Shown: positions 1,217 to 21,328, counted from the stretch's first letter. The stretch: 40,051 bases of DNA from an uncultured archaeon (GCA_964386335.1 CAYLRQ010000001.1:13568-53618); one strand, 5' to 3'. The notes: generated by a model from the letters alone, not told the origin. Made by a program: numbers and translations.

Positions 1217-2557
1217 ATGGATCTATTAAATATACTTCCAGGAGTTGCAAATCCAAAAACAAGACTAAATTTTAAGGATAGATTAAAATGGACAGGAATA
1301 GGTCTGTTGTTGTTCTATTTGATGGGTTTTATACATGTTGCCGGAGCCCAGGCTGAAGTTTATGACAGATTCAAGCAGATTTCTGTCTTGATGGGTTCTA
1401 AATTTGGAACTCTTGCAACTTTGGGAATTGGTCCAATAGTTACGGCTTCTATTCTTTTGCAGGTTTTGGTCGGTTCCAAAATAATAAATTGGGATTTGAA
1501 TACAAAAGAAGGAAGATCAAAATTTCAGGGAACACAAAAACTTCTCGCCATTGCTTTCTGTTTTTTGGAAGGTTTCGCTTATGTCCTGTTTGGGGCGGTT
1601 CCCGCCAGTTCACCTTCATTAATACCCATGGTAGGTCTACAAATTGCTCTCGGTGGTTTAATAATTTTATTCCTTGATGAAGTGATAATGAAATGGGGCA
1701 TCGGCTCGGGTGTTTCCCTATTTATTGCCGCCGGGGTTTCAGAGAGAGTATTTATTGGTTTGTTCTCTCCTTTTGAAAAGGCAGGGGCAATTGCACAATT
1801 GATATACGGCTTTTCAACTGCAAATTTTGTTCTCGTTGGAATGGCGGTCACAACAATTGCGGCAACTATTCTAATTTTTGCTATTTGCCTGTATGCTCAG
1901 TCAATTAAAGTAGAAATTCCTCTGGCCTTTTCCCAACTGAGAGGTTTTGGAAGAAGATGGCCTTTGAATTTCTTTTATACTTCAAACATTCCGGTAATTC
2001 TGGCAGCGGCATTAATTATAAATATATCTATGGTTGGAGCAATGCTGGATTCAAAAGGAATAAGCATCCTTGGAAAATTTGATGAATCTGGAACTCCTGC
2101 TCCAGGAGGAATTGTCTATTATCTAACGCCCCCTCACAATGTTCTTCAGAAGTTCCTGTTCGGCTTTGGTCCAGATCCAGTAGATGTTGTTAGAATTTTT
2201 ACTTATTTGGTTTTTTTGACAATTCTCTGTGTCGTGTTTTCTATATTCTGGGTTGAAACTGCAAATATGGGTCCCGAGGCCGTTGCCGATCAAATTTCAA
2301 ATATTGGCATGCAAATCCCGGGATTTAGAAAAGATAAGAGAATTCTTATAAAAATATTGAGTAAATACATATATCCGCTTACTGTATTGGGTGGAATTGC
2401 CGTAGGTATTTTGGCCGCCCTGGCAGATTTTACCGGAGCTTTGGGTACGGGAACCGGAATTTTACTTACGGTGATGATTTTATACAATTTCTATGAGAGA
2501 ATTTCCCAGCAATATATAGAAGATATGAATCCTGCTGTAAGAAAGTTCTTTAAATAA
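1217..2557 (+). CDS. secY: Preprotein translocase subunit SecY
   Basis: 446-aa polytopic membrane protein. 'RLKWTGIGLLLFYLM', 'LGIGPIVTASILLQ' and 'WGIGSGVSLFIAAG' are SecY/Sec61alpha signatures. It follows uL15. Confidence 0.93.
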   Translation: MDLLNILPGVANPKTRLNFKDRLKWTGIGLLLFYLMGFIHVAGAQAEVYDRFKQISVLMGSKFGTLATLGIGPIVTASILLQVLVGSKIINWDLNTKEGRSKFQGTQKLLAIAFCFLEGFAYVLFGAVPASSPSLIPMVGLQIALGGLIILFLDEVIMKWGIGSGVSLFIAAGVSERVFIGLFSPFEKAGAIAQLIYGFSTANFVLVGMAVTTIAATILIFAICLYAQSIKVEIPLAFSQLRGFGRRWPLNFFYTSNIPVILAAALIINISMVGAMLDSKGISILGKFDESGTPAPGGIVYYLTPPHNVLQKFLFGFGPDPVDVVRIFTYLVFLTILCVVFSIFWVETANMGPEAVADQISNIGMQIPGFRKDKRILIKILSKYIYPLTVLGGIAVGILAALADFTGALGTGTGILLTVMILYNFYERISQQYIEDMNPAVRKFFK

Positions 2558-2700
2558 ATAGTGAGAAGAAGGTGCCCGCACTATTTAAATTCTATCATAA
2601 CCTCAATGCTCTCCACAGGCATTCTCTGACTTTTCTCTTATTTCATATCAAGCTATTCTTTACTTCAATTACAAAAGTTACCAATTCAAATTAGAGAATT

Positions 2701-7643: not shown

Positions 7644-9101
7644 TTATGACTTCCTTTTATAAAATCTAAAGTAATAGATTGCACTGGCCAATATACCAAC
7701 TGCTATTATAACCATAAGAATTGCTAAATAATCTGGTTGTTTTGGTTTTGAAATCGGTTGTCCTTCTTGCGGTTGTTTCTCTTCTGTTGGTTGTGTTATA
7801 TTTTCTTTTGGATGCTTTGCTGGTTGCTCTTCTTGAACTTCCTCTAAATACTCAACATAGAATTCCACAGAAGTCTCATTAACTATAGAAGCATCTTTCT
7901 CTCCATTTATTTCATAAGTTATTGTTAATTCGTCTCCTTCTGAAACTTCTGGATAAACAAAAGCGTATTCCGGGTCTTTTTCAATAATTTCAACTGTTGC
8001 TTTAGGTGCTGTAACCGTAATTAAATCACTGGAATTCGCAAAGGTTTTTGGAACAGAATCATAAATAATAAAATTTTTTGCTTTCTTCTTTCCCTTATAT
8101 TTTACTTTTAATTCTAATTTTGATTTGTTTTGTTCTATTTTGAATTTTCTTGTTGCCTCCAAATTTGAAGTAATACTTGCCGAAAGCCTCAATAAATTTT
8201 CTATTGCCCGCTGAGACATTTTTCCCTTTCTCAAAACTTTCTCCAAAGCTGTCTGCAATTTTGTATTGTTGCGAAGTCCAACACCAGGAACCAAACTTAA
8301 TTTTTTTGTTGCATTTTTTGCTTTTTTTACCGGAGGGATATAAACTCCTCCGCCAATCCCTCCACCAGTTCCTCCGCCACTGCCTCCATCTCCGCCTTGT
8401 TGTTGTTCTTCCTGCTTACTACCTCCAGCGCTTTTAACAACAACAGTTATTAAGTCTGATTTAGAATCGCAATTTGAAGGTGAAGCGGTGAAGGTGACAT
8501 TTTGAGTTCCAACTGCAGATGCCAAAACAGTGCATGTAAGAGAAGCTCTTCCACCGGGAGAAATCGAAGTCACTGGAGAACATCCGCTCGAGATATTCAT
8601 TCCCGTGCCAGAAACAGAAAAACTCACGGATTCAGCACTTGTGCCCCCACTATTTTCTACATTTAAAGTAACGGTATAAGTAGAATCTTTATCTACTGTG
8701 ACAGAAGAAGGAAAAACAGATAATGAAATTGAAGGGGGTAAAACAACATCAAAGCTTGAACTTTCAGCCGTAGATGGTGAACCCGTAGTGCTAATACTAA
8801 CTTTTATCTTCACATTTGTTTGAATTGTTGAAATTCTTGCAGTTGTCCAGGATACGCTTGTTGTTCCATCTGAGAAAGATTTTGAAGTGCCTTCTTCTGT
8901 TGAAAATCCTGTGGGCAAATCAATTAAATTGACAGTGCCCGAATCGGATAAGCCTGAAACTGTGATTGTAAACGGCATGCCTTTCATTACGGTCCCGCTA
9001 TCTGCACCTGATTGGGTAATTAAAACTGTTGCTGCCTTTACTGGTATGATTAGTGCTAAAGAAATCAAAATTAAAACCAAAACTTTATTTTTTACCATCA
9101 T
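7644..9101 (-). CDS. Secreted, C-terminally membrane-anchored surface protein (Ig/CARDB-like repeats, Gly-rich linker)
   Basis: Signal peptide 'VLVLILISLALIIPVKA'. Ser/Thr-rich beta-type modules ('TYTVTLNVENSGGTSAESVSFSVSG' is CARDB-like). Linker 'QQQGGDGGSGGGTGGGIGGG'. C-terminal TM plus basic tail 'LAILMVIIAVGILASAIYYFRFYKRKS'. ATGA start/stop overlap with the upstream giant gene. Confidence 0.72.
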   Translation of the reverse strand: MMVKNKVLVLILISLALIIPVKAATVLITQSGADSGTVMKGMPFTITVSGLSDSGTVNLIDLPTGFSTEEGTSKSFSDGTTSVSWTTARISTIQTNVKIKVSISTTGSPSTAESSSFDVVLPPSISLSVFPSSVTVDKDSTYTVTLNVENSGGTSAESVSFSVSGTGMNISSGCSPVTSISPGGRASLTCTVLASAVGTQNVTFTASPSNCDSKSDLITVVVKSAGGSKQEEQQQGGDGGSGGGTGGGIGGGVYIPPVKKAKNATKKLSLVPGVGLRNNTKLQTALEKVLRKGKMSQRAIENLLRLSASITSNLEATRKFKIEQNKSKLELKVKYKGKKKAKNFIIYDSVPKTFANSSDLITVTAPKATVEIIEKDPEYAFVYPEVSEGDELTITYEINGEKDASIVNETSVEFYVEYLEEVQEEQPAKHPKENITQPTEEKQPQEGQPISKPKQPDYLAILMVIIAVGILASAIYYFRFYKRKS

Positions 9102-12100
9102 TTGCCACCACCTACTACCTTAAACCATTCTTTTTTTACTTCTGTTGCTCCAGTGGAATCTATTCTTATTTTCACCATATAATCACCTTCTGACCAGGTT
9201 CCATTAGGTGCAATTGTAACCAAAGCATATCCATAATTGTCTGTTTTATTTGAAGTAACGGTTGTATAATCTTCCCCTTCTTCCAAGAAGCAACCGCCTG
9301 TGTGAGTAAACTTCATTATTTTTTCTACGGATATGCTGGCATTAATAATCGGGGTATGGTCAAAGTTATATGCTTTCAATATAAAAGTAACATTATCAGA
9401 TATATTAAATCCTTCGTTCATATCTCTGTTTTTTCTAATTAACATAGAAGTGTTGTTGTAAACCACTATATCCCAATTTGGTTTTTCCTTCCAACTCATA
9501 TTTTTATTTTCTTTTCCAAATCTTAAATTACCGTTCCAGATTGCTGTTGGCAAACTGCTTCTCATCTCAACAATTCCAATTTCTTCTCCATAAAAATCAT
9601 AATAACTTGGAGTCTCTGCACTTAGATTAACACCCCACCAATCTTCTGTTATATAAGGGTCATCATCAACTATATTCTGTGTTAACTTCGCATTATTATT
9701 TGTGAAATCATCCAAAGCAAATATATAATAGGTTTTATTCCTGGCTCCGTCTCTATCCAAATCCAAATTAATTTCTGTTTCATTAACTGCTGCAAAGTAG
9801 GTTGTATTTGTATCTTTAGCTATCCAAACTCCGATGCCCGGCCTAACTTTTCCTGAGAGATTTCCTATTGTTATGCCTTCCCACGGACCCGGGCCGATAC
9901 TTGCTAAGTATAAATTTGATGTGAAATTTTCTCCTATTGAAACATTGATTGCATTGCTAAAATCTCCGTCTGTATCAAACCATGCAACTTTTGCACATTC
10001 ATCAATTCCCAGCACAGAACACATGGGATAATTTAAAGTGCTATTTGCCAAAACTATGTTATAATATACTCCACTCAAATTTAAAGCCATCATTCTCCAT
10101 TTTGGATGATTCCAGTCATGTCTCAAAGGTTTTACTTTTGAACTATTAAAGTTCTTCAAGCCAATAACAACTCCGTGACTTGTATTGGAATTGTTTACAG
10201 CAAGAATATAAAACATATAAGAATGATTATTATAATCTAAAATTGTAATCTGATCTCCCTCATTTTTTGCCTGAACATTTGAGAAATTACAATCTCCTTG
10301 TTTTATCCAGACCTTGCTATTATTTCCCGCATTTAAATAAACCCAATAATTAAAGTCCATGCTTAATGTCCAGTTTTCTGATGTATTATTAGCATCGCTG
10401 GGTATTGCAAAATTCGGACAAGATCCTGACCCGTTGCTTGCAGGATTTGCAAACACACCGTCATAAGTTTTTCCCCATTCACTGATATTGCCCATTAAAT
10501 CCAACAACATGCCATAAGTATCTTCCCTATATCTTTGTAAATTTAACTTTTTAAAGTTATTGATATAACCGCCTTCACCAACACAACTATCTGCCAAAAA
10601 TGCTTTTACTTCCACGAAAGGCCATCTCCGTTCTTCCATTATTTCCTTCCCGTCTTTGGTGATTGCCGCCAAACCAAAAGTATATCTTCCTGTCTCCATT
10701 GATTTGTTTAAGATTTGTGACAAATTAACAATTAATTCGCCTGATGCATTTATCCCCACAGGTGTAAAATTTATATCAGACCCCATAAACTCAAACATTC
10801 CATTTGAATTCTCCAATCTGATATGCGTAATTGTAACATTTGCTACTCCCGGACCTCCAGAAGGTTCTTGAATCATCACAGGAACTCTAACCAGATCACC
10901 TAATTTTATTTGTCCCAAGTCGCTCCAATCACCCGGCTTTACAGTATAAACTTTTATTTTCTTGGCATTGGGAGCAATGCTTAGTAAAACCAATTTGCTT
11001 CCTTCCCCAAATGTTCTTTGCGTTACATCGCTATTTACAGAAATAGGTATTGAGAAATTGCTGGTATTTGAGTAAAATAAGGTATCATAAAGCCCCTCTT
11101 TCTGACTATCTGAAATCATAAAGTACACAGTTGAATTTTCTTTGCCATCGCCATTTAAATCAATTCCTTTTTGTTTTTGCTCATTTGGATCAAAATATCC
11201 CAGCCATTCTTCATTTACTGCACCTAGTTTAAATACTCCGCTCTTTGATAAAGAAGTATTAACAAAAGCTCCTGTCTGTGCTAAAACATTTTGGCCATAT
11301 AGGACAACACTGTTGCTATCCAATTTCAAAACCTTCCATTTTCCCCCATAGGAATCATTTATAATCCCGTTAAGTGGAATTCCCTGAATTGAACTAAAGT
11401 TTGGCGTATCGCTCATCCACAGGTGTGTTGTATTATGATATACATAAACAGGTCTTGAAGAATTAAATTTGGGGAAGTGATGAGTAAACCAATCATTATT
11501 ACCCTGCAGATTCTTAATTAAATTTGCAATATAACCAAAATAGAAATTTGAGAAGTTTTTTGAATTATTTGGAGGCGTTATAACAAGTAAACTCGCCCCA
11601 TAATCCTCAAATTTTTTTCCGCAAATTCCTTTTGCATTTTTTATCTTAAAAGAATAAGGAGTAATATTTAAAATTTTCCAGGTTATATTTCCCGCTTCAA
11701 AAGTCTGCCCTATTGTATAATTTCCGAAGACAATGCAATTATTACTACAATTTAGATTATATGCGAAATGCGTTCCATTCACAGCAACACTTATATCAGT
11801 TCCTGTTTCTCCTTGACTGCAGTAGCCCCAATGCCATTCTCCACTTTCTCCCGAGATGCAATAAGCCCCAGCCATAGTGGCATTATGGATTGAACTTGTA
11901 TTAATATTATGTTGCCCATTCATGTCTGAAGTGCAATTAGTTATATTTGTTGATTGATTGAAAGAGCAAACTCCTGACAAATAATTATTATTCAAACAAG
12001 AATCTTCTCTGTTTTCCAATCTTAATTCTCTCTTTGGTGTATCCGTCTGCTGCTCAATCTGTACTTCAGTTATAGTGGGTGGGAAAACCGACACACTCCT

Positions 12101-15100
12101 TGTTTCAAACTCAATATTTTCCATATCTTTATTTCCCTTTATATCTACAATAGTAAGTTCTAGGTTGTATCTTCCTTTTGAAGAAATTATTTTGGATAAA
12201 TTAACTGTAATTGTGCAATTATTTGCTGTACAGGTAACAGTTGTAGAATTTGCCGGTGGTTTTATATGTTCGCCAATTTTTTTATTCTCTATTGCTCTTA
12301 CGCCTGTTTTGGTTTCATTAAGAATTACGGGACTTCCATTAAATGTATAAGCACTGACATTAATTACAACTATATCATCTGGTGCAAATATAACGGGCCA
12401 TTGATCTTTACCCATATAATCCAGCTTTGCCAAGAAAGGAGATACCCTGAACCAATAGGTGCCTATATCAGTGCCTTTGTTTGTCTTAACTTTGACATTT
12501 GCCATAAGATTTCCCGTCTTATTAATTCCGGTTATATTAATTATCCACATTTCTTCTTCTTGCTGAAATCCGCCATAATCTACAGTAACATTTTCCTTGC
12601 TGATTTTATAATTATAATCTGTCCCGTTTTTTAGTACAATAGGAGGCCCTTCTCTAAACAGATTTATGTTTTCTAATGAAGCATTTGTAATAATTAAAGG
12701 CTGTGGCGTACCATTCATTTTTGACTGAGGGTCATAAGCAACCACTCCAAATAAAACATTGCTGTTTACTCCATACGCTCCTCCCATTCCAAAAGATGCC
12801 ATTAAATTACCTTCAACAACATCAATCTGTCTTGCATCAATCCAGAAATTTCTTATCTCAAATCCAGCCCACCCAAAATAAGTATCATTTGTAGAAAGGT
12901 CGGTTAATTTTAAATCTATATGATACCAGCCTGATGGAAGATTGACCGGATTTATTGTCAGAGTTGCGCTTGAATTATAAACAAATCCTTCAATTACCTT
13001 GTAATCTGCGCCTTTCTCCATTTTCTTCATTAGTTGATCATTCCATAATTCATTAACATCTACCTCCAAACCATCACAATCTGTACAAGTTAATTGAGTT
13101 TTTCCTATATCTCTAATATCAAACAAACTTGCTTTATTTATATCGACAACATTTACCCTTATTGAAATATTTTCTCCAGAGCCAAAAATACAAGGCTGCA
13201 TTTGGCACATTGGTTCGCCCCAAATCATATATTTTTTAAGCATGAAATATCCGGTTCCGGTTCCTTCTTCCACGGTGCCGCTCAAATTTGCCTTGAATTT
13301 AAATTTGAACATGAAAAATCCCTCATCATCAGGGGTAATAAATCTTATTGTCCCGTTAACCAAGGTTTCATTTGCAATTGCTCTATAATCCTCTGTAAAA
13401 ACATCCTTATAAGAAGGCCAAACTTTATACATTTCAATAATTTTTGCATCTGTTATTTTACTCGCATCTAATTCCCGCCTTGTCAACAAATCAGTAATTT
13501 TTAATTTAATTTTTATTGTTTCATTTGGAGCATAGAACCAGAAATCGTCTCCTCTGAAATCTACAGGGTTTGCTCTTGCATATAATTTTTGTATTGAAAA
13601 TCTGGATGTGCTTTCTTTCTTACCTAAAGGATGATCAACACTTATCTTAACTTTATAAAATCCTTCTCTCTGCGGAGCATCAAATATAACCATGCATTGC
13701 TTATGCATAATCTCCGGCGGACCTTCATCAGATACATTCAACAAAGTCGGCACTACAGACATATTTACTATCATTAGATTCAAAGAACTTTTATTTAATT
13801 CTTCTCCATTCTCGTCTGAAACACTAAGAACTGTTATTCTATCTGAGCAATTTACTCCATCGCCCTTATAATCCTCTATATCTATAACCCCCACTTCTTC
13901 GGGAGGACCTTCCATCAAACCTTTTGAAGAGTTAATCAGCATTATTGCAATTGAAACCTTGCTATTTGGAGCAAAGGAATCTACCATTGCTTCCGGACCT
14001 CCAGCAGAATCCAAAAATTGTGTATTTATAGCCATTATCTGCAAAGAGACTGACCTAATTTCAAAAGCAGTTAAAAATTCCTGCTTTTTATTGGAGTAAC
14101 TAGCTATAATATCTACTTTATATTTTCCCTCCGGTTTACCTTCTAAATTTAACTCACTTTCATAAGTTCCGTTTCCTCCTGTTAAAGGAACAGAAGTTGT
14201 AGTTCCATCGGGATAACTAATATTGGCGCTGACCGAAGCCCCATCGATAAGTTGCCCGTCTAAAGTTTTCAATCTTGCAACAATTTTTAATTTTGGATTT
14301 GGCGTAAACAGATAAGTTGGCGTCCCTGCAAGATTTGTAATTTCGCCGTATAATTTGAAATTTTCAACTGAAAAGACTTCTGCAGGCGTTCCATTTATCT
14401 CAATAAAATAATTGCCTGTTCCATTGGGAGCTTTAAAACTGGCATTCAAACAACCCTCTTCCGTTGTATTAACTTCTGTCGAATTAATCACATTGCCTTC
14501 GCTATCTACCAAAGTTATATTTACTGTCTGATTTCCTTTTAAATGGTTTGTAGAATTTTCAACAAAACCCACAAAATAAACCTCTTCTCCACCAGAATAC
14601 ATAGAATCGTTTATTGGAGGTGCCAAAATAATTTTATTTCCGGTTGCAAATTCAACTTCTGCAATAACATAATCAACAGTTTCATCAATTTTCTCACCTA
14701 TTTTTCTTGATTTCCAGATTCTTGAGAAGTTCGCACTTTTATCAATATAGACCGAATCATAAATTCCCGGGAATCTGTTATCAACAAGAACAAAGGTAAA
14801 ATTCATTCCATCTTCTGTCAAATTAAAATAAGTTCCATAATGCAAAATTCCCGATAAAGACAGACCTTTCAGTTCAGAAAAGTTATGTCCGTCTTTTGTT
14901 GTTGTATTGGAGATATTAATAATATTATTTGTATTAACAAATTTTACATCGAGCATTCCCGCAAGATGTGCCTTGAAATATAATTTATCACTAACCATTT
15001 TAAAACCTAAAGGAATTGCTTCATTGCCGGCACTTACATTAACTACATAATCACCGGGGATTGTAAGATTTATATAAGCAGGGTCTGTTGTGTGAATAAC

Positions 15101-15343
15101 CATTGCAAAAATATTATTGCTTCCGCCTATCGACATAGCAGAATGATTTGCAATTAAAGTTCCGGAAGAATTATAAAATTTGGCAACTACCAATGTATGA
15201 TTTGTTGAAGTATCAACAACGCCATCTATTATAATATCCTCGCCCAACATATATTCCGTTTTATCTATATTTGTAACTAATGCAAAGGAGGGGATAATTT
15301 GAACTATAAGAGAAAGTACAAACACCAAAAATATCTTTCTCAT
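9098..15343 (-). CDS. Giant secreted surface protein (2081 aa), N-glycosylation-sequon rich
   Basis: Uninterrupted 6.2-kb ORF. N-terminal signal peptide 'IFLVFVLSLIVQIIPSFALV' and no C-terminal TM. Very dense N-x-S/T sequons (about 20 in the first ~330 residues by manual count). Cys-rich patch around 'CLNNNYLSGVCSFNQSTNITNC'. Confidence 0.85.
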   Translation of the reverse strand: MRKIFLVFVLSLIVQIIPSFALVTNIDKTEYMLGEDIIIDGVVDTSTNHTLVVAKFYNSSGTLIANHSAMSIGGSNNIFAMVIHTTDPAYINLTIPGDYVVNVSAGNEAIPLGFKMVSDKLYFKAHLAGMLDVKFVNTNNIINISNTTTKDGHNFSELKGLSLSGILHYGTYFNLTEDGMNFTFVLVDNRFPGIYDSVYIDKSANFSRIWKSRKIGEKIDETVDYVIAEVEFATGNKIILAPPINDSMYSGGEEVYFVGFVENSTNHLKGNQTVNITLVDSEGNVINSTEVNTTEEGCLNASFKAPNGTGNYFIEINGTPAEVFSVENFKLYGEITNLAGTPTYLFTPNPKLKIVARLKTLDGQLIDGASVSANISYPDGTTTSVPLTGGNGTYESELNLEGKPEGKYKVDIIASYSNKKQEFLTAFEIRSVSLQIMAINTQFLDSAGGPEAMVDSFAPNSKVSIAIMLINSSKGLMEGPPEEVGVIDIEDYKGDGVNCSDRITVLSVSDENGEELNKSSLNLMIVNMSVVPTLLNVSDEGPPEIMHKQCMVIFDAPQREGFYKVKISVDHPLGKKESTSRFSIQKLYARANPVDFRGDDFWFYAPNETIKIKLKITDLLTRRELDASKITDAKIIEMYKVWPSYKDVFTEDYRAIANETLVNGTIRFITPDDEGFFMFKFKFKANLSGTVEEGTGTGYFMLKKYMIWGEPMCQMQPCIFGSGENISIRVNVVDINKASLFDIRDIGKTQLTCTDCDGLEVDVNELWNDQLMKKMEKGADYKVIEGFVYNSSATLTINPVNLPSGWYHIDLKLTDLSTNDTYFGWAGFEIRNFWIDARQIDVVEGNLMASFGMGGAYGVNSNVLFGVVAYDPQSKMNGTPQPLIITNASLENINLFREGPPIVLKNGTDYNYKISKENVTVDYGGFQQEEEMWIINITGINKTGNLMANVKVKTNKGTDIGTYWFRVSPFLAKLDYMGKDQWPVIFAPDDIVVINVSAYTFNGSPVILNETKTGVRAIENKKIGEHIKPPANSTTVTCTANNCTITVNLSKIISSKGRYNLELTIVDIKGNKDMENIEFETRSVSVFPPTITEVQIEQQTDTPKRELRLENREDSCLNNNYLSGVCSFNQSTNITNCTSDMNGQHNINTSSIHNATMAGAYCISGESGEWHWGYCSQGETGTDISVAVNGTHFAYNLNCSNNCIVFGNYTIGQTFEAGNITWKILNITPYSFKIKNAKGICGKKFEDYGASLLVITPPNNSKNFSNFYFGYIANLIKNLQGNNDWFTHHFPKFNSSRPVYVYHNTTHLWMSDTPNFSSIQGIPLNGIINDSYGGKWKVLKLDSNSVVLYGQNVLAQTGAFVNTSLSKSGVFKLGAVNEEWLGYFDPNEQKQKGIDLNGDGKENSTVYFMISDSQKEGLYDTLFYSNTSNFSIPISVNSDVTQRTFGEGSKLVLLSIAPNAKKIKVYTVKPGDWSDLGQIKLGDLVRVPVMIQEPSGGPGVANVTITHIRLENSNGMFEFMGSDINFTPVGINASGELIVNLSQILNKSMETGRYTFGLAAITKDGKEIMEERRWPFVEVKAFLADSCVGEGGYINNFKKLNLQRYREDTYGMLLDLMGNISEWGKTYDGVFANPASNGSGSCPNFAIPSDANNTSENWTLSMDFNYWVYLNAGNNSKVWIKQGDCNFSNVQAKNEGDQITILDYNNHSYMFYILAVNNSNTSHGVVIGLKNFNSSKVKPLRHDWNHPKWRMMALNLSGVYYNIVLANSTLNYPMCSVLGIDECAKVAWFDTDGDFSNAINVSIGENFTSNLYLASIGPGPWEGITIGNLSGKVRPGIGVWIAKDTNTTYFAAVNETEINLDLDRDGARNKTYYIFALDDFTNNNAKLTQNIVDDDPYITEDWWGVNLSAETPSYYDFYGEEIGIVEMRSSLPTAIWNGNLRFGKENKNMSWKEKPNWDIVVYNNTSMLIRKNRDMNEGFNISDNVTFILKAYNFDHTPIINASISVEKIMKFTHTGGCFLEEGEDYTTVTSNKTDNYGYALVTIAPNGTWSEGDYMVKIRIDSTGATEVKKEWFKVVGGGK

Positions 15344-16056: not shown

Positions 16057-16776
16057 ATGTTGTTGGAAATCAAAGATTTGGAAGTTGAAGGAGATGGGAA
16101 AAAGATATTGAAAGGGATTGATTTAGAAATAGAGAAGGGAGAGATTCAGGCAATTCTTGGTCCAAATGCTTCAGGCAAAAGCACATTGGTAAAAGTAATA
16201 TCTGGAAATCCAAAATACAAAATTAAAAGGGGAAAGATTTTATTTAACGGGGAAGAAATTAACAAGATTCAAACGGAGAAAAGAACAAAACTTGGAATTG
16301 CCATAAGCTGGCAGCATCCTCCCGCTATTAAAAATGTAAAACTTTCTAATCTGCTGGATAAAATTTCCAAAAAGCATGTTGAAATTGAAAAATTTGGTGT
16401 CGGTAAAAATATGCTGGAGAGGGAAATAAATTTAAATTTTTCGGGAGGGGAAAAAAAGATTTCAGAATTGCTACAGATAATATCTTTAAATCCAAAACTC
16501 GCAATTTTTGATGAAATTGATTCTGGACTGGATATCAAAAAATTGGAAAAAGTTGGAGAAATTATAAAAAAAGAGTTAATTGATAAAAAAGTTTCGGTTT
16601 TATTAATTACGCACGGTGGAGAAATACTTAATTTTCTGAAACCCGCTTTTGTTAATGTGATGGTTGACGGAAAGATAATATGCAAAGAAAAAAATTTTAA
16701 AAAGGTCTTAAAAACCATAAGAGAGTATGATTATGAAGAATGCAAAAAATGCAAATTATATTCAAAGAGATCATAG
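16057..16776 (+). CDS. sufC: Fe-S cluster assembly ATPase SufC
   Basis: Walker A 'GPNASGKST', signature 'FSGGEKK', Walker B 'LAIFDEIDSGLD' and H-loop 'LLITHG'. A soluble ABC ATPase next to a SufB/D gene. Confidence 0.88.
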   Translation: MLLEIKDLEVEGDGKKILKGIDLEIEKGEIQAILGPNASGKSTLVKVISGNPKYKIKRGKILFNGEEINKIQTEKRTKLGIAISWQHPPAIKNVKLSNLLDKISKKHVEIEKFGVGKNMLEREINLNFSGGEKKISELLQIISLNPKLAIFDEIDSGLDIKKLEKVGEIIKKELIDKKVSVLLITHGGEILNFLKPAFVNVMVDGKIICKEKNFKKVLKTIREYDYEECKKCKLYSKRS

Positions 16777-17635
16777 TGCAAGTATTTTAAAATCTGAAGG
16801 TGTTGAATTGATGAGAATTTCAGAAGCTTTAAATAAATATGGGTGGTTAAAAAAATTTTTATATGGAAAACCAAAAGAAGGCTATTTTATATTTGTTAAG
16901 AAGCAGATAAAATATCCTCTTATTACTTGCGTAACCATTAATTCCAAAAAGATAAAACAGGAAATGCAGAACATAGTGATAATTGATAAAAATTTGAAAA
17001 TTTCCATGCAGGGAACATGCAGTTCGTTAAAGAAAGATTTGGAGGGGGTGCATTACGCAAGAGGCAAGATAATCCTGAAGGAAGGCGCTCATCTTAAATA
17101 CAATCATCTGCACTCATGGAACGATGGAGATGAAGTAAATTCGAATTATGAATTTTATTTAGAGAAAAACTCCAGACTGGATTATAATTACAATACTGTT
17201 TCATCACCAAAAAATTTATCGCTTACAACAAAAGTTGTGTGTTTGAAAAAGTCTGCTGCAAATCTGAAGATAAGCGGTATCTGCAAGAATTCTAAGATGA
17301 AAATAAAAGAGAATTTAATATTGAAAGAAAATAATTCCTCCGGCATACTGAAATTGAGATTTGTTGGAAAAGAGAACAGCGAAATTTTATCGCACTCGTC
17401 AATTACGGCGGAAGCAGAATGCAAAGGTCATTTGGATTGTCAGGGTTTGCTCGTTGATAAAACTTCAAAAATTTCATTAATTCCAGAATTGGCGTGCAAA
17501 GACAACAGATCTCAGATAACACACGAAGCATCAATTGGAAAAATCTCCGAGGAAGAACTGCATTATCTCAGAACAAGGGGTTTGAACGAGCAGGAGGCAA
17601 TAGATTTGATAGTCAATGGTTTTTTGGAAATATAG
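16727..17635 (+). CDS. sufBD: Fe-S cluster assembly scaffold SufB/SufD family protein
   Basis: C-terminus 'ITHEASIGKISEEELHYLRTRGLNEQEAIDLIVNGF' is the SufB/SufD signature. The short 302-aa form occurs in reduced archaea. The start may be the downstream Met at 16811, which avoids a 50-nt overlap with sufC. The last ~21 nt plus the stop lie inside the 30-bp direct repeat. Confidence 0.8.
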   Translation: MIMKNAKNANYIQRDHSASILKSEGVELMRISEALNKYGWLKKFLYGKPKEGYFIFVKKQIKYPLITCVTINSKKIKQEMQNIVIIDKNLKISMQGTCSSLKKDLEGVHYARGKIILKEGAHLKYNHLHSWNDGDEVNSNYEFYLEKNSRLDYNYNTVSSPKNLSLTTKVVCLKKSAANLKISGICKNSKMKIKENLILKENNSSGILKLRFVGKENSEILSHSSITAEAECKGHLDCQGLLVDKTSKISLIPELACKDNRSQITHEASIGKISEEELHYLRTRGLNEQEAIDLIVNGFLEI

Positions 17636-17644
17636 AAAATTAAA
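17615..17644. repeat. Direct repeat, left copy (aatggttttttggaaatatagaaaattaaa)
   Basis: A 30-bp string covering the sufBD C-terminal codons and TAG stop. It is repeated perfectly at 20029-20058. Confidence 0.95.
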
Positions 17645-17790
17645 AAATAAGAATCTTCATTCGGAGGATAGATTTTTGTTTCCATTTTTTATATTTAAGT
17701 TCATAAATAAAGTATGAGCCAAAGATTTATAAAATTTCGCTTTAACTCCTATTTGAGAGATCATACGAATAAAAAGTGTGTGAAATACTC

Positions 17791-17814
17791 GTTAGTTGCA
17801 ATTTTTGGCGGTGC
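17791..17814. repeat. Unit 1, 5' inverted-repeat arm (gttagttgc ... ttggcggtgc)
   Basis: gttagttgc (17791-17799) is the exact reverse complement of gcaactaac (18222-18230). tttttggcggtgc (17802-17814) pairs with gcaccgccgaaaa (18171-18183) with one G-T position. Confidence 0.85.
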
Positions 17815-17838
17815 TTTAAAGCGAAAGGTATTTAATTT

Positions 17839-18165
17839 ATGACTGAAGAAAAACGATTAATTAGCTATTGTGGAATTTGTTGTTCATTATGTCCCGCTTT
17901 CAGAGAAAAAGAGTGTCCCGGATGCCAAAAACTTTTAGAATTATCTGGTAGATGTGAAATTGCTAAATGTGCAAGCTCAAGAAATATTGAGTGCTGCTTT
18001 TTGTGTAAAGATTTCCCTTGTAAGTTGTTTGAAGAAGGTTTTGATTGGAATTTGGATGAAATTCCAGAATTCAAGGAATTCAAACTTGGTATAGTTAAGT
18101 GGAAACCCTATAGCAAAGAATATATCAGATTGTTTAAAATTGGAAAAGAAAAAACAGAAAAATAA
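17839..18165 (+). CDS. DUF3795-like Cys-rich (putative metal-binding) protein
   Basis: 108 aa. 'CGICCSLCPAFREKECPGCQK...CEIAKCASSRNIECCFLCKDFPC' matches the DUF3795 cysteine pattern. It is enclosed by the unit-1 inverted repeats. Confidence 0.6.
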   Translation: MTEEKRLISYCGICCSLCPAFREKECPGCQKLLELSGRCEIAKCASSRNIECCFLCKDFPCKLFEEGFDWNLDEIPEFKEFKLGIVKWKPYSKEYIRLFKIGKEKTEK

Positions 18166-18170
18166 TTTTC

Positions 18171-18230
18171 GCACCGCCGAAAACTCTTCGGCTTACTTCG
18201 TAAGCCTCGCCACTATCGTGGGCAACTAAC
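18171..18230. repeat. Unit 1, 3' inverted-repeat arm with inserted hairpins
   Basis: It starts 5 nt after the stop codon. gcaccgcc pairs back to 17807-17814. Local hairpins are gccgaa/ttcggc (18176-18192) and ggcttac-ttc-gtaagcc (18190-18206). It ends with gcaactaac. Visibly GC-rich. Confidence 0.85.
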
Positions 18231-18231
18231 A

Positions 18232-18301
18232 GCAAATATGCGAGAAATCTGCACTTCGTTTGATTTTCCCAAATCGCCTATCGGCGACTTCGCATATTTG
18301 C
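18232..18301. repeat. 12-bp perfect-stem hairpin at the junction between units 1 and 2
   Basis: gcaaatatgcga (18232-18243) pairs with tcgcatatttgc (18290-18301). An inner hairpin is tcgcc-tatc-ggcga (18274-18287). The hairpin is flanked by AACTAAC on the left and GTTAAGT on the right. Confidence 0.85.
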
Positions 18302-18306
18302 GATAT

Positions 18307-18363
18307 GTTAAGTCCAATTGAGGTCGGCTCGCAAGTATGATATCTCCCAAATGGGCGGGCTTT
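18307..18363. repeat. Unit 2, 5' inverted-repeat arm (three blocks)
   Basis: gttaagtcc (18307-18315), ttgaggtcggc (18318-18328) and gggcgggcttt (18353-18363) are reverse complements of 19577-19585 (9/9), 19507-19517 (11/11) and 19483-19493 (10/11). Confidence 0.88.
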
Positions 18364-18400
18364 CAAAAGATTTTTATATCTTTAATCATTGACTAAAATT

Positions 18401-19483
18401 ATGTTGTATAAAATTAAAGGAAAACAAACAGAAAAAGTAAATCAAACAAAATTTAAACAAGAAGAAAAATTAGAAAAAGATTTGGAAGATTGGATAGAGA
18501 ATAATCCATCTATCTTAGGAGAAAGGTTATTAATAATAGGGAGACAGGTCCAAATACCTGAAGTTTATGATAGAATTGATTTATTAGCTCTAGATACTAA
18601 TGGAAACGTAGTCATAATAGAATTAAAGAAAGGGGGACTTAAAGATCCAGTAGATATCCAATCTTTGAGATATGCTTCCTATGTTTCAAGGTGGGAATAC
18701 GAGGATTTAGAAAAACAAGCGAAGAACTATTTTTCTGAAAAAGGTGAAGAAGAATTTAATTTTAATGACAAATTTGAAGAATTTTGTTCATCTGCTGGGA
18801 TTGATGAAATTCCAGATTTAAATCAGGATCAAAGGATAATTATAGTTGGAAGTAAATTAAAGGAGAAATTAGGTTCTGTTGCATTGTGGTTAAGAGAACA
18901 CAGCATAGACATAAAAATTATTGAAGTTTCCCTTTACAAAGACGGAGATAATTTATTTTTATCCCCTCAAGTGATAATCCCTGTTCCTACAACAGAGAAG
19001 TTCGAGATTGGTAAACACGCTTTAAGGAAGGATAGACCTTGGTTAAGCAATGGTGAAGATTGGCATTTAAATAAAAGATGTGGAAAAATAATGAAAGAAA
19101 AATTAATTCAATTCAATAATCTAATTAATGAGAACTTTGAGACAGTCGAAGGTCCAAATTGGAATCAAAAATTTTATGTTTCTTTTAAAGAAGGAAATCA
19201 TATTTGGATATATGTTAATACTCATAAAACAACTCTTGTTTTTAATTTTTTAATTAAAAAAGGGGACATGAATGTAAATAAAATATCCGAAGATTTAGGA
19301 ATAAAAATATTTGATAGAGGATCTTCATTATCTGAAAAATTACAATTAGAAAGTTCTGTAGAAATTACAAATAAAGGAGAATATGATAGAATTAGAATGA
19401 GAATAAAAAAAGAATTTAATATTTCTTCTGATAAGTTCTTGAATTTTGTTAAAAATTGCTTCAATTCATTTAAACAAGTATAA
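18401..19483 (+). CDS. NucS-C/DUF91-like PD-(D/E)XK nuclease domain protein with uncharacterised C-terminal domain
   Basis: N-terminal 'LEDWIENNPSILGERLLIIGRQVQIPEVYDRIDLLALDTNGNVVIIELKKG...DIQSLRY' matches the NucS C-terminal / restriction-endonuclease-like motif (D...E-x-K, then Q-L-x-Y). The ATG at 18401 is preferred over the TTG at 18389 used by the ORF track. The C-terminal ~170 aa are unassigned, possibly DUF4268-like. Confidence 0.68.
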   Translation: MLYKIKGKQTEKVNQTKFKQEEKLEKDLEDWIENNPSILGERLLIIGRQVQIPEVYDRIDLLALDTNGNVVIIELKKGGLKDPVDIQSLRYASYVSRWEYEDLEKQAKNYFSEKGEEEFNFNDKFEEFCSSAGIDEIPDLNQDQRIIIVGSKLKEKLGSVALWLREHSIDIKIIEVSLYKDGDNLFLSPQVIIPVPTTEKFEIGKHALRKDRPWLSNGEDWHLNKRCGKIMKEKLIQFNNLINENFETVEGPNWNQKFYVSFKEGNHIWIYVNTHKTTLVFNFLIKKGDMNVNKISEDLGIKIFDRGSSLSEKLQLESSVEITNKGEYDRIRMRIKKEFNISSDKFLNFVKNCFNSFKQV

Positions 19484-19585
19484 AAGCCCACCCTTTATTT
19501 TAGCTCGCCGACCTCAACTTCTTCGTCGCTTCGCTCCTCGACCCCGTTGCACTCTCCTCGCCTTCGGCTCGTCGGGGGACTTAAC
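19483..19585. repeat. Unit 2, 3' inverted-repeat arm with ~59-nt GC-rich insertion
   Basis: It begins at the last base of the stop codon. It contains aaagcccaccc, gccgacctcaa, a GC-rich spacer (19518-19576) and ggacttaac. Its tail 'cctcgcc..tcgt.ggg..acttaacagc' resembles the tail of the unit-1 3' arm. Confidence 0.85.
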
Positions 19586-19632
19586 AGCGATTTAACGAAA
19601 TTCAGGCGGCTCGCTTTATATTTATTCGTAAT

Positions 19633-19977
19633 TTAAATAACTTGTACTTCATAGAATCTTTCCCTTTCTTTCATAGGAACCTTTCCTTTTTCCAAATTAT
19701 TTTTATATGTAAGGATCATATTCTCAATTTCCGAGAAAGGTTTCCAAAATTCTTCTCCAAACCTATTTTCAAGTTCAGCAGCAAGGGGTGATAAGTACCT
19801 CACCCTAGGTACACTAAGCACCGATGTTATAGCTTCGTATATTTGAGCTTTAAAAACACCGCCCTCTCTCTCTATAACCTTTTCTTCTAATATCTCTAAA
19901 GGTGATTTTTTACTAGCTATTATTGTTTGGTTAATACCTCCCTTTTCGTCCCAAACATAAATCTCGTATACCCTCAT
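19633..19977 (-). CDS. Hypothetical protein (114 aa) inside the insertion
   Basis: An ATG-initiated ORF in typical intergenic context, with no recognisable motif. It is the only minus-strand ORF within the repeat-bounded segment. Confidence 0.45.
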   Translation of the reverse strand: MRVYEIYVWDEKGGINQTIIASKKSPLEILEEKVIEREGGVFKAQIYEAITSVLSVPRVRYLSPLAAELENRFGEEFWKPFSEIENMILTYKNNLEKGKVPMKERERFYEVQVI

Positions 19978-20028
19978 ATATAAAAGAGAATAATTAATCT
20001 TTATAAACCTTTCGATTCTTTAACTGCT

Positions 20029-20058
20029 AATGGTTTTTTGGAAATATAGAAAATTAAA
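20029..20058. repeat. Direct repeat, right copy
   Basis: Identical 30/30 to 17615-17644. It lies 31 nt upstream of the CDF transporter start. Confidence 0.95.
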
Positions 20059-20089
20059 GGTGGAGTAAAAAATCTTTCAAATACTAATT

Positions 20090-21328
20090 ATGTCAATAGA
20101 TTTAAAGAAAGGTCAGAAGGCGGTAGAAAAAGCGGGTTTGATTTCGTTTTTGCTGACAGCGGGAAAAGGAATTGTGGGTTTTTTATCCGGAAGTGTTGTT
20201 TTGGTTGCAGATGCTCTGCACAATTTAACCGATCTAACAATTGATATTGCTTCCTGGTTTGGATTGAAAATAGCGCAGAGAAAGCCGGATGAAAAGTTTC
20301 CCTATGGATATTATAAGGTTGAATCTCTAACAACTTTGTTCGTTTCACTTTTTATTTTATATGCTGCATGCGAATTGTTAATTGAAGGTTATTCAAGACT
20401 CTTTATTGTTTCAGAAATTGATGTGCCTTTTCTCGCCATGCTGGTCGCTTTAATTTCTTCTCTTGTCTCAATATTCATATCAAAATATTTGAAAAATACC
20501 GGAAAAAGCATAAATTCAGAACTGCTGATTGTAAATTCAAAGGAAAGATTTGTCGACGGCATTTCTTCAATTTTTGTTTTTTTGGCAATCTTTCTGAATT
20601 ATTACAAAATTCCATGCATTGAGGGAATTACGTCAATGATAATTTCCCTATTAATTTTGAAAGTGGGAATTTTTTCCATAAAAGATTCTGTTTTTTCTTT
20701 GATGGATATCAGCCCAAGTAAAGAAGAGGAGGAGAAAATAAAGAAAATCATAAAGAGTGTAAAAGGTGTTGATGATTTTACAGATCTGAAATTAAGAAAA
20801 TCTGGCCCATTCATTTTTGGAGAAGTAAAAATAAAAGTCAAAAGATTTATTAAGGTTGAAAGAGGTCATGAAATTGCAGATGAAATCGAAAACAAAATTA
20901 AAGAAAAGATAAAACAAGTTAATTCCTTTACTGTGCATGTTGAACCTTACAAAACAAGCAAACACAGAATCGCAATTCCGATTTTGAAACCTTTGGGTTT
21001 GGAATCAAAAGTGATGGAACATTTTGGAAGAGCAAATTATTTTTTGTTTGTTGACACAATCAAAAATTCAATTACCAAACATTATTCAAAGGAAAATCCC
21101 TGCAAAAAGAAAGAAGTTAGAGCTGGGCTGGAAGCCGCACATTTCATCATAAAAGAAAAAGCGGACGTTCTCATAACAAAAGAAATCGGAGAAATCTCCC
21201 TGCATATTTTAAGAGACAAACTAATTGATGTTTATAAAACAAAGGGGGAAACAGCGAAAGAAGTCATTGATAATTTTTTTGAAAATAAATTGGTCAGATT
21301 AAAAGAGCCTACAAGAGAAAAGAATTGA
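20090..21328 (+). CDS. Cation diffusion facilitator (CDF) transporter fused to a NifX/NifB-like (dinitrogenase FeMo-cofactor-binding fold) C-terminal domain
   Basis: N-terminal six-TM CDF core ('ADALHNLTDL', 'FPYGYYKVESL') plus a cytoplasmic CDF domain ('FTVHVEP'). The extra ~110-aa tail 'RIAIPI...MEHFGRANYFLFVD...AHFIIKEKADVLITKEIGEISLHILRDKLIDVY' resembles the Nitro_FeMo-Co/NifX-like fold. Confidence 0.8.
   Translation: MSIDLKKGQKAVEKAGLISFLLTAGKGIVGFLSGSVVLVADALHNLTDLTIDIASWFGLKIAQRKPDEKFPYGYYKVESLTTLFVSLFILYAACELLIEGYSRLFIVSEIDVPFLAMLVALISSLVSIFISKYLKNTGKSINSELLIVNSKERFVDGISSIFVFLAIFLNYYKIPCIEGITSMIISLLILKVGIFSIKDSVFSLMDISPSKEEEEKIKKIIKSVKGVDDFTDLKLRKSGPFIFGEVKIKVKRFIKVERGHEIADEIENKIKEKIKQVNSFTVHVEPYKTSKHRIAIPILKPLGLESKVMEHFGRANYFLFVDTIKNSITKHYSKENPCKKKEVRAGLEAAHFIIKEKADVLITKEIGEISLHILRDKLIDVYKTKGETAKEVIDNFFENKLVRLKEPTREKN

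What the first reader, a model, noticed from the sequence alone, without database searches (positions are those of the whole stretch)
17615..20058. Perfect 30-bp direct repeat duplicating the sufBD 3' end brackets a ~2.4-kb insertion with no visible recombinase
The string aatggttttttggaaatatagaaaattaaa occurs at 17615-17644, where it covers the last sufBD codons and the TAG stop. It occurs again, 30/30 identical, at 20029-20058, just upstream of the CDF transporter gene. Duplication of a gene's 3' end at both edges of foreign DNA is the classic attL/attR scar of site-specific integration that preserves the target gene. Deleting one copy plus the interior gives a compact sufBD-to-CDF junction of about 40 nt, like the other junctions in this window. 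The interior holds three accessory ORFs (DUF3795-like, NucS-like nuclease, a 114-aa orphan) and the only non-tRNA GC-rich islands in 40 kb. There is no tyrosine or serine recombinase, DDE transposase or HUH enzyme. The element is therefore either non-autonomous, decayed, or moved by an unrecognised mechanism.
Basis: partly seen in the sequence, partly recalled or inferred. Interest (0 to 1): 0.85.

Follow-up and report, generated by a model that had tools for sequence, protein, structure and literature searches.

The report
Defence-gene cassette array inserted after sufBD
A 2.4-kb strain-variable insertion in a DPANN archaeon, bracketed by a duplicated 30-bp gene end, turns out to be a small stack of integron-like gene cassettes (one carrying an anti-virus nuclease also found in bacteria), and related strains show the empty site and swapped cassettes.

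Summary
The 30-bp repeat is exact, occurs only twice in the window, and has sharp edges. It brackets a true insertion. A sister lineage (about 93.5% identical, fully syntenic) has sufBD followed directly by the CDF gene, with one repeat copy and a 42-nt spacer.

All four junction types (attB, attL, attR, and attP-like inside tandem units) share the same 30-bp core.

The interior was missed. The "GC-rich islands" are structured recombination sites of the attC kind. They separate gene cassettes that join at G|TT. Each cassette's first 8-9 bases are the exact complement of its own inverse core.

Co-occurring strains gain, lose or swap cassettes at exactly these points. This includes the nuclease cassette, a restriction-modification cassette, and a different cassette after DUF3795.

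The "NucS-like" gene belongs to the PDC-S11 ("Madara") defence nuclease family. It is 81% identical to a cassette with the same site type in a Cloacimonadota bacterium. More distant homologues sit between canonical attC sites.

The sites are non-canonical: a canonical attC model does not detect them. The recombinases are unknown.

The parts
16727..17635 (+). sufBD, the target gene. Its 3' end is preserved by the left repeat copy.
   Evidence: Pfam SUFBD_core, E 5e-28. The last 21 nt of coding sequence are conserved in relatives L008 and L012.
17615..17644 (+). Left copy of the 30-bp core, in an attL-type junction: gatagtc|core|aaataagaatc.
17645..17791 (+). 'Leader' segment A. It is AT-rich and ends in the G of the first G|TT cassette junction (GTTAGTTGC, 17791-17799). 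It travels together with the 30-mer in tandem units. Its 3' part has the layout of a decayed hairpin site.
   Evidence: The same segment follows the internal 30-mer in L111-L114. The R-M cassette of L113 is inserted exactly at this G|TT. The segment shows no significant fold.
17792..18307 (+). Cassette 1. It contains a 5' arm (17802-17814), the DUF3795 ORF (17839-18165), a 3' arm (18171-18183), a GC-rich spacer, and hairpin site S1 (R'' GCAACTAAC at 18222-18230; R' G|TTAAGT at 18307-18313).
   Evidence: The start GTTAGTTGC is the exact complement of the cassette's own R''. S1 folds with z = -4.6. Model R2 scores it 103 bits on the + strand and 15 bits on the - strand. Homology with L106 ends exactly at 18313.
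18308..19597 (+). Cassette 2. It starts TTAAGTCC and has 5' arms at 18318-18328 and 18353-18363. The ORF (18401-19483) encodes a PDC-S11/Madara-family NucS-like PD-(D/E)xK nuclease. The 3' arms are at 19483-19493 and 19507-19517, followed by a GC-rich spacer. The recombination site is truncated: R'' GGACTTAAC (19577-19585) and L'' (19588-19597) remain, but the loop, L' and R' are deleted.
   Evidence: GTTAAGTCC (18307-18315) is the exact complement of GGACTTAAC. PADLOC PDC-S11 matches at E 2e-46. The cassette is absent in L108. The remnant does not fold and scores 6.7 bits with R2.
19598..20028 (-). Right-hand segment carrying the 114-aa orphan ORF (19633-19977, minus strand). It is always adjacent to the right or internal 30-mer.
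   Evidence: No family hit in Pfam, PADLOC or NCBIfam. Only 4 protein clusters in 5.8 billion proteins, all from this lineage.
20029..20058 (+). Right copy of the 30-bp core, in an attR-type junction: aactgct|core|ggtggag. It is non-coding here and has picked up single substitutions in some strains.
   Evidence: L108, L002 and L110 copies are 29/30.
20090..21328 (+). CDF transporter gene with a C-terminal Nitro_FeMo-Co domain. It is the native downstream neighbour of sufBD.
   Evidence: Pfam. It is directly adjacent to sufBD in L103-L105 and L004.

Best explanation
The window comes from a Candidatus Aenigmatarchaeota (DPANN) genome.

What is shown:
- Bases 17645-20058 are a strain-variable insertion between sufBD and its native neighbour, the CDF gene.
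- The inserted DNA is a unit made of leader segA, then gene cassettes, then the orf114 segment, then a 30-bp copy of the sufBD 3' end.
- The cassettes are of the integron type. Each is an ORF followed by a roughly 100-nt hairpin recombination site. The site reads: inverse core xxxTAAC, then AG, a 10-12-bp stem, a variable loop containing CCCAAAT plus a small hairpin plus ACTT, the return stem, a 4-5-nt bulge, and the core G|TTxxxx.
- Cassettes are joined at G|TT. Each begins with the exact complement of its own inverse core.
- Strains differ by whole cassettes at exactly these points.
- The nuclease cassette encodes a PDC-S11 ('Madara') type defence nuclease. A restriction-modification cassette occupies the same array in other strains.

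What is inferred:
- Cassettes move as excised circles by recombination at G|TT, catalysed in trans by an integron-integrase-like tyrosine recombinase that is not encoded here. This is how a cassette 81% identical in protein came to sit in a Cloacimonadota bacterium.
- The whole unit entered the sufBD 3' end as a circle by Campbell-type recombination across the 30-bp identity. This left the repeat at both ends and kept sufBD intact. Repeated events or accretion produced the tandem units.
- This step is most likely site-specific, using an integrase supplied in trans. Homologous recombination is not excluded.
- The nuclease cassette is now fixed in this strain, because its own site has lost the loop, L' and R'.
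For: Empty site and insertion:
- L103, L104 and L105 have sufBD stop, one core copy, then CDF after 42 nt, with synteny on both sides.
- The more distant relative L004 has sufBD and CDF adjacent. L008 and L009 have other genes in the spacer.

Junctions:
- attB, attL, attR and attP-like junctions share one sharply bounded core.

Cassette logic:
- The complement-of-own-R'' rule holds: 9/9 for DUF3795 (17791-17799 against 18222-18230), 9/9 for the nuclease (18307-18315 against 19577-19585), 9/9 for the R-M cassette in L113/L111, and 8/9 in L018 and L108.
- The same rule holds in the canonical control L055.

Cassette polymorphism at G|TT:
- L106 diverges from the window right after GTTAAGT.
- L108 lacks the nuclease cassette.
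- L113 has a 2.4-kb R-M cassette inserted exactly between G17791 and TTAGTTGC.

Site family:
- There are 4 distinct full sites, with perfect but different stems.
- 13 of 21 pairs have compensatory changes. 89% of cells are paired, against 27-40% in slid controls, and 0 of 500 shuffles reach this.

Integron link:
- A covariance model built from 9 published archaeal attCs (Ghaly et al. 2022, PMC9668308, Data S9) hits canonical attCs directly flanking nuclease homologues in L055, L045, L074 and L085.
- In L035 it hits a canonical attC in the same array as an S-type site.
- Archaeal arrays, mostly without an integrase and including Aenigmatarchaeota, are documented.

Defence function:
- PADLOC PDC-S11 matches at E 2e-46.
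- PDC-S11 was characterised as Madara in bioRxiv 10.64898/2026.09.05.749240.
- Integron cassettes acting as defence banks are documented.
Against: - The canonical attC model (R1) does not detect the window's site at E up to 10, although it works on positive examples elsewhere.
- The site geometry differs from canonical attC. It has a continuous 10-12-bp stem, a 4-5-nt bulge next to R', and conserved CCCAAAT/ACTT in the loop. It also has extra 6-17-bp 'arms' that pair the cassette's 5' end with the region just after the ORF. Canonical cassettes such as L055 lack these arms.
- No integron integrase or other recombinase was found in the ORFs scanned in the 40-kb window or in the gene tables of the related contigs.
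- The same DUF3795 ORF carries two different 3' sites (S1 in the window, S3 in L108). L002 has a hybrid site. Simple cassette logic does not predict either.
- Integron recombination by itself does not create a 30-bp flanking repeat, so a second mechanism has to be assumed.
- Only one intact site remains in this window.
Confidence: 0.7

Rival explanations
1. The 30-bp repeat and the tandem units arose by homologous recombination or unequal crossing-over, not by a site-specific integrase. Examples are a single crossover of an excised multi-cassette circle that happened to carry the sufBD end, or sister-chromosome misalignment. The cassettes themselves are still integron-type.
For: No integrase lies in or near the element. 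Tandem units in L112 are 99.3% identical over 912 nt, as expected after duplication. The core shows no dyad symmetry and does not fold.
Against: The identity block has the same sharp 30-bp edges in four junction types and in several independent samples. Independent insertions with different contents begin at the same base after the core: segA, and the 860-bp segment of L014. 30 bp is short for efficient homologous recombination (general knowledge, not tested here).
Confidence: 0.2
2. The GC-rich islands are terminal inverted repeats of a transposon whose transposase is the PD-(D/E)xK nuclease. The element would be autonomous by an unrecognised cut-and-paste mechanism.
For: The nuclease ORF is bracketed by inverted sequences: GTTAAGTCC..TTGAGGTCGGC at the left and GCCGACCTCAA..GGACTTAAC at the right. 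The protein is widespread in Bacteria and Archaea at 50-84% identity.
Against: The same kind of ends and hairpin site follow unrelated ORFs that have no nuclease: DUF3795, HhH-GPD, and MTase+GIY-YIG. Most nuclease homologues lack such ends, and several sit between canonical attC sites. The family matches a characterised defence nuclease. There are no target-site duplications at cassette junctions.
Confidence: 0.04
3. The islands encode a structured non-coding RNA, for example a guide or regulatory RNA for the nuclease or a UTR-pairing element. They would not be DNA recombination sites.
For: There is strong covariation and a strand-specific model score. 5' and 3' arms enclose the ORFs and would pair the mRNA ends. 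The 5' half of the site differs between the window and L002, which resembles a variable 'guide'.
Against: There is no Rfam match. The element follows unrelated ORFs. Strain differences break exactly at G|TT of the core, and cassette starts complement their own inverse core. These are DNA recombination signatures that an RNA role does not explain. An additional RNA-level role for the arms is not excluded.
Confidence: 0.05
4. The repeat is an assembly artefact: a k-mer-sized join in a metagenome-assembled contig.
For: 30 bp equals k-1 for k=31. The Logan contig L001 stops exactly at the end of the left copy.
Against: Independent assemblies made with other assemblers and k values span one or both copies with the same interior: L014 (k141), L023 (JGI), L108, L111 and L113. 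The break in L001 is simply what a genuine 30-bp repeat does to a k=31 graph.
Confidence: 0.01

Closest known systems
Integron gene cassettes and CALINs (clusters of attC sites lacking an integrase), including the archaeal ones of Ghaly et al. 2022 (PMC9668308)
   Same: Short ORFs are each followed by a hairpin site with an AAC...GTT inverse core and core. Cassettes are joined at G|TT, and each cassette start is complementary to its own inverse core. Whole cassettes are present, absent or swapped between strains. No integrase is adjacent. The cargo is defence genes. The same cassette occurs across domains. Homologous nuclease genes lie in canonical bacterial arrays.
   Different: A model of canonical attCs does not detect the sites. 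The stem and bulge geometry differs. The loop has conserved CCCAAAT/ACTT motifs. Extra arms extend the complementarity beyond the R box and across the ORF. A 40-70-nt GC-rich spacer precedes R'' in some cassettes. The whole array is bracketed by a 30-bp repeat of the neighbouring gene's end and can be tandemly repeated.
Non-autonomous integrative elements flanked by att repeats and mobilised in trans. From my own knowledge: cis-mobilisable elements (CIMEs) formed by accretion next to ICEs in Streptococcus, and integrase-less satellites among the tycheposons of Prochlorococcus.
   Same: Direct repeats duplicate the 3' end of the target gene, so the gene stays intact. An empty site exists in relatives. 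There is no integrase inside. Tandem units are separated by internal att copies.
   Different: The target here is a protein-coding gene end in a DPANN archaeon. The cargo is organised as integron-type cassettes. No cognate integrase-bearing partner element has been identified.
PDC-S11 / 'Madara' modification-dependent defence nuclease (PADLOC; bioRxiv 10.64898/2026.09.05.749240)
   Same: The match to five PDC-S11 profiles is nearly full length (best E 2e-46). The N-terminal domain is a NucS-like PD-(D/E)xK fold, with conserved D60, E74 and K76.
   Different: This is an archaeal, cassette-borne copy. Its activity and its dependence on DNA modification have not been tested here.

Membership tests
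Integron cassette array (attC sites; CALIN) | A hairpin recombination site with inverse core RYYYAAC and core GTTRRRY at the 3' end of a cassette ORF | tested here: met
   S1: R'' is AACTAAC (6/7 to the consensus) and R' is GTTAAGT (7/7). The hairpin folds with z = -4.6. The family shows compensatory changes in 13 of 21 pairs.
Integron cassette array (attC sites; CALIN) | Recognition by a covariance model of canonical attC sites (the criterion used by attC-finding pipelines) | tested here: not met
   Model R1 was built from 9 published archaeal attCs. It gives no hit at 18220-18318 at E up to 10 with filters off. The same model finds canonical attCs flanking homologues in L055, L045 and L074. 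R1 is a small home-made model with trimmed loops, so the official IntegronFinder model was not tested.
Integron cassette array (attC sites; CALIN) | Cassette boundaries at G|TT, with the first bases of each cassette complementary to its own inverse core (the footprint of a circular intermediate) | tested here: met
   9/9, 9/9, 9/9, 8/9 and 8/9 in five cassettes. The same rule is seen in the canonical control L055.
Integron cassette array (attC sites; CALIN) | Cassette-wise gain, loss and shuffling between related genomes | tested here: met
   L106 has a different cassette after GTTAAGT. L108 lacks the nuclease cassette. L113 and L111 have an R-M cassette inserted at G|TTAGTTGC.
Integron cassette array (attC sites; CALIN) | At least two attC sites clustered together (the CALIN criterion) | tested here: inconclusive
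   The window has one intact site (S1) plus one truncated site (19577-19597) and a decayed layout in segA. Alleles L111 and L113 have two intact sites, S4 and S3.
Integron cassette array (attC sites; CALIN) | An integron integrase (IntI) and an attI site next to the array | tested here: not met
   No Phage_integrase or other recombinase domain was found in the window ORFs scanned against Pfam or in the gene tables of related contigs. The rest of the 79-kb source contig and the rest of the genome could not be examined.
Integron cassette array (attC sites; CALIN) | Recombination of the folded bottom strand by IntI | not testable with these tools
   This needs conjugation or recombination assays like those in Ghaly et al. 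2022.
Site-specifically integrated, non-autonomous element (attL/attR) | Direct repeats that duplicate the target end, and an empty site with one copy in relatives | tested here: met
Site-specifically integrated, non-autonomous element (attL/attR) | An attP-type junction (right end, core, left end) | tested here: met
   aactgct|core|aaataagaatc occurs in L111, L112 (twice), L113 and L114. It was seen only inside tandem arrays. A free circle was not demonstrated.
Site-specifically integrated, non-autonomous element (attL/attR) | A cognate integrase, in cis or in trans | tested here: not met
   There is none in the element or among the window ORFs scanned. A source in trans could not be searched.
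PDC-S11 / Madara defence nuclease | Full-length similarity to the PDC-S11 profiles and a NucS-like PD-(D/E)xK motif | tested here: met
   PADLOC E 2.4e-46 over residues 7-340. NucS_C, E 9e-5. Invariant D60, E74 and K76 in 23 homologues. Anti-phage activity was not tested.

The most novel reading that the evidence does not exclude
The S-type sites are roughly 100-nt hairpins with a bulge next to the core and 6-17-bp arms that clamp the cassette's two ends around the ORF. They may define a cassette-mobilisation system that is distinct from classical integrons. This system would use a recombinase other than a canonical IntI and would be shared by DPANN archaea and uncultured bacteria (Cloacimonadota, sediment lineages). 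Its arrays would be packaged into a 30-bp-att unit that integrates into the end of a housekeeping gene, accretes in tandem, and so moves whole defence arrays at once.
Probability: 0.2. Interest if true: 0.8.

Novelty: new variant of a known kind. Interest (0 to 1): 0.6.

Why it matters
The locus gives a population-level view of how a reduced DPANN archaeon reshuffles defence genes. The empty site, several occupied alleles, cassette swaps and tandem units are all recoverable from public metagenomes.

It adds a concrete, near-identical cross-domain case to the proposal that integron-type cassettes carry genes between Archaea and Bacteria. The shared cassette encodes a Madara/PDC-S11 nuclease and carries the same unusual recombination site in an Aenigmatarchaeote and in a Cloacimonadota bacterium.

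The sites are missed by a canonical attC model. Arrays of this kind may therefore be under-counted by current integron finders.

The combination of attC-type cassettes with an att-flanked, integrase-less carrier unit raises a testable question: which recombinases, supplied in trans, move cassettes and whole arrays in organisms that do not encode them nearby?

Tried and rejected
- Rfam, at gathering thresholds and at E up to 10, found no family for the islands.
- ARAGORN found no tRNA or tmRNA.
- I first thought the two islands were halves of one RNA gene split by the ORF, or a guide RNA for the nuclease. I rejected this because the module follows unrelated ORFs and strain breakpoints fall at G|TT.
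- The MAFFT alignment of island 1 against the reverse of island 2 was uninformative. Manual and locus comparison was needed.
- An exact-motif scan of 80 homologue loci found the module only in L018/L019 and in the window's own lineage. Most homologues are ordinary resident or canonical-cassette genes.
- The viral contig scan for the nuclease found no relatives.
- The canonical attC model did not hit the window.
- The 30-mer and its surroundings do not fold, and the repeat does not extend in degenerate form.
- A weak 7-nt inverted match (AAGAATC) near the two ends of the insert was judged to be chance.
- The orf114 homologue search returned only lineage-restricted orphans, so I did not attempt structure prediction.
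- The PDB profile search for the nuclease gave only a marginal NucS hit.
- The exact look-up of the 364-aa TTG-start product failed. The real start is the ATG at 18401, giving 360 aa.

Full report
**Observation**

The 30-mer AATGGTTTTTTGGAAATATAGAAAATTAAA is present at 17615-17644 and 20029-20058. The two copies are 30/30 identical. No further copy exists in the window even with 3 mismatches, and none is expected by chance. The left copy ends sufBD (16727-17635, SUFBD_core). The right copy lies 31 nt before the CDF gene (20090-21328). Outside the 30 nt, the two contexts are only 25-30% identical, so the repeat has sharp edges.

No recombinase domain was found in the window ORFs I scanned against Pfam, which were all the large ones except core translation genes and two large surface-protein genes. 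The remark about tRNA islands is not borne out: ARAGORN finds none.

**Organism and empty site**

SufBD relatives place the window in Candidatus Aenigmatarchaeota, a DPANN group. In distant relatives, sufBD is followed directly by the CDF gene (L004, 66-nt spacer) or by one unrelated gene and then CDF (L008, L009). In L012 (95% nt identity) synteny ends a few bases after the stop.

The decisive evidence comes from cluster members of the SufBD protein. These led to contigs L103, L104 and L105, which are about 93.5% identical to the window and syntenic for many genes on both sides. There, the sufBD stop is followed by a single core copy and then the CDF start 42 nt later.

The same SufBD protein also occurs on an occupied contig (L106). 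Both states therefore coexist in one set of samples.

**What the interior is**

The GC-rich islands flank the nuclease ORF, and at first sight they looked like inverted repeats or a split RNA. Comparison with other contigs changed this picture.

A Cloacimonadota contig (L018) encodes a nuclease 81% identical in protein. It has the same module after the ORF, with compensatory changes. The module also follows DUF3795 in the window, HhH-GPD in L002, and a methyltransferase plus GIY-YIG pair in L111 and L113.

Its core is a hairpin of about 100 nt with this layout:
- an inverse core xxxTAAC, followed by AG;
- a 10-12-bp stem;
- a variable loop that ends in CCCAAAT, a small hairpin, and ACTT;
- the return stem;
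- a 4-5-nt bulge;
- the core G|TTxxxx.

Four distinct full sites have perfect stems of unrelated sequence. On the model-fitted alignment, 13 of 21 pairs show changes on both sides. 89% of cells pair, against 27-40% when partners are slid, and no shuffle out of 500 reaches the observed values. The alignment was fitted to the model, so this leans toward the structure.

**Cassette logic**

Each cassette begins, right after a G, with the exact complement of its own inverse core:
- GTTAGTTGC (17791-17799) against GCAACTAAC (18222-18230);
- GTTAAGTCC (18307-18315) against GGACTTAAC (19577-19585);
- GTTATGTGC against GCACATAAC for the R-M cassette;
- 8/9 in L018 and L108.

This is the footprint of a circular intermediate that recombines at G|TT. 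A textbook canonical array shows the same footprint (L055: GTTGGGCG against CGCCCAAC).

Strains differ by whole cassettes at these exact points:
- L106 matches the window up to 18313, the end of GTTAAGT, and then carries another cassette.
- L108 lacks the nuclease cassette.
- L113 and L111 have a 2.4-kb R-M cassette inserted precisely between G17791 and TTAGTTGC.

**Link to integrons, and its limits**

Archaeal integron arrays are documented. Most lack an integrase, and they include Aenigmatarchaeota from hydrothermal sediments (Ghaly et al. 2022, PMC9668308).

I built a covariance model from the nine archaeal attCs in their Data S9. It finds canonical attCs immediately flanking nuclease homologues in L055 (both sides), L045, L074 and L085. 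In L035 it finds a canonical attC in the same array as an S-type site, which a second model had picked up. The nuclease family is therefore a recurrent integron cassette gene, and S-type and canonical sites can share an array.

The same canonical model does not detect the window's site. The S-type sites also have features that canonical cassettes lack:
- the bulge next to the core;
- conserved loop motifs;
- 6-17-bp arms that pair the cassette's 5' end with the region just after the ORF (17802-17814 with 18171-18183; 18318-18328 with 19507-19517; 18353-18363 with 19483-19493);
- often a GC-rich spacer before the inverse core.

I therefore call them a divergent, attC-like class. I do not file them as canonical attCs.

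**State of this window's array**

S1 (18220-18318) is intact and strongly strand-specific: 103 bits against 15 bits. The nuclease cassette's own site keeps only the inverse core and the first stem half. Comparison with L108 shows an 86-nt internal deletion whose endpoints fall at G|TT-like sequences. This cassette is probably immobilised here.

L002 has a hybrid site with a broken stem. This implies either further site copies in the population or a chimeric assembly. The same DUF3795 ORF occurs with two different sites (S1 and S3), which simple cassette logic does not predict.

**The 30-bp repeat**

Integron recombination alone does not make such a repeat. The repeat belongs to a larger unit: leader segA, then cassettes, then the orf114 segment, then the core. 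All four junction types occur with the same core:
- attB (L103-L105);
- attL (window, L108, L111, L113);
- attR (window, L108, L109, L110, L002; three of these with one substitution in the non-coding copy);
- attP-like junctions (orf114 segment, core, segA) inside tandem units in L111-L114.

Other insertions also start at the base after the right core, such as the 860 bp in L014.

Nothing here shows whether the crossover is site-specific, which I favour, or homologous.

**Function**

The 360-aa protein (start at the ATG at 18401) matches PADLOC PDC-S11 over nearly its full length, at E 2e-46. It has a NucS-like PD-(D/E)xK motif. A 2026 preprint characterised PDC-S11 as 'Madara', a modification-dependent anti-phage nuclease.

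With the R-M cassette found in other alleles, the locus is a small defence-cassette hotspot. This agrees with recent work on integrons as defence gene banks. orf114 is a lineage-restricted orphan. The function of DUF3795 is unknown.

**Verdict**

The more informative finding is that the insert is an integron-like cassette array with non-canonical sites. The array is carried on an att-flanked, non-autonomous unit, and the locus is polymorphic in nature. One of its cassettes is also found, 81% identical in protein and with the same site type, in a bacterial genome.

It is a new variant of known kinds (CALIN, CIME-like element), not a new category. That would change only if the S-type sites prove to use a different recombinase.

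Noticed in passing
window 7481/7692-15650: An 8-kb block holds two large surface-protein genes: 485 aa (7644-9101) and 2081 aa (9098-15343), both on the minus strand. It is absent from closely related contigs L001 and L103-L106, but present in L108. This is a second strain-variable region. L001 has a 58-nt stretch at the junction that resembles window 7968-8025.
   Followed up: partly
L018 3470-4806 (Cloacimonadota, GCA_034722995.1 contig JAYEOL010000014.1): A single nuclease cassette, 81% identical in protein to the archaeal one, carries the same S-type site and arms. It sits alone between an ETF/ferredoxin gene and an amidohydrolase gene. This is a lone cassette in a bacterial chromosome.
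   Followed up: partly
L035 1071-1521 and about 2805: A GC-rich sediment contig has an S-type site (E 0.004) and a canonical attC (E 0.026) in one array upstream of a nuclease homologue. After the nuclease there is only the inverse-core/first-stem half of an S-type site.
   Followed up: partly
L113 (reverse complement) 1097-3549; L111; L112: A 2.4-kb cassette encoding an N6/N4 DNA methyltransferase and a GIY-YIG endonuclease (a restriction-modification pair) is inserted at the first G|TT junction of the same hotspot. A second unit follows the internal 30-mer and carries a Cofac_haem_bdg-like gene.
   Followed up: partly
L014 2518-3377: An extra 860 bp, with 161-aa and 66-aa orphan ORFs on the minus strand, is inserted exactly after the right 30-mer. 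It replaces the 17 nt at window 20059-20075. It has no G|TT boundary and no third repeat copy.
   Followed up: partly
L002 923-1062: The site after an HhH-GPD gene has a 5' half that cannot pair with its 3' half. The 3' half is identical to S1. This is either recombination between two sites or a chimeric assembly. The true left context of that strain is unknown.
   Followed up: no
window 17802-17814 / 18171-18183 and 18318-18363 / 19483-19517: The 5' and 3' untranslated ends of each cassette are complementary ('arms'), so the ORF is enclosed in a long-range helix. These arms covary between the window and L018. Their role is unexplained. Possibilities include an extended recombination site in the circular form, or pairing of the mRNA ends.
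   Followed up: partly
window 20090-21328: The CDF transporter is fused to a C-terminal Nitro_FeMo-Co (dinitrogenase cofactor-binding-like) domain. In L008, a separate small gene of that domain sits between sufBD and CDF.
   Followed up: no
window 1-40051: ARAGORN, run with bacterial settings, finds no tRNA gene in 40 kb. Rfam finds nothing above gathering thresholds.
   Followed up: no
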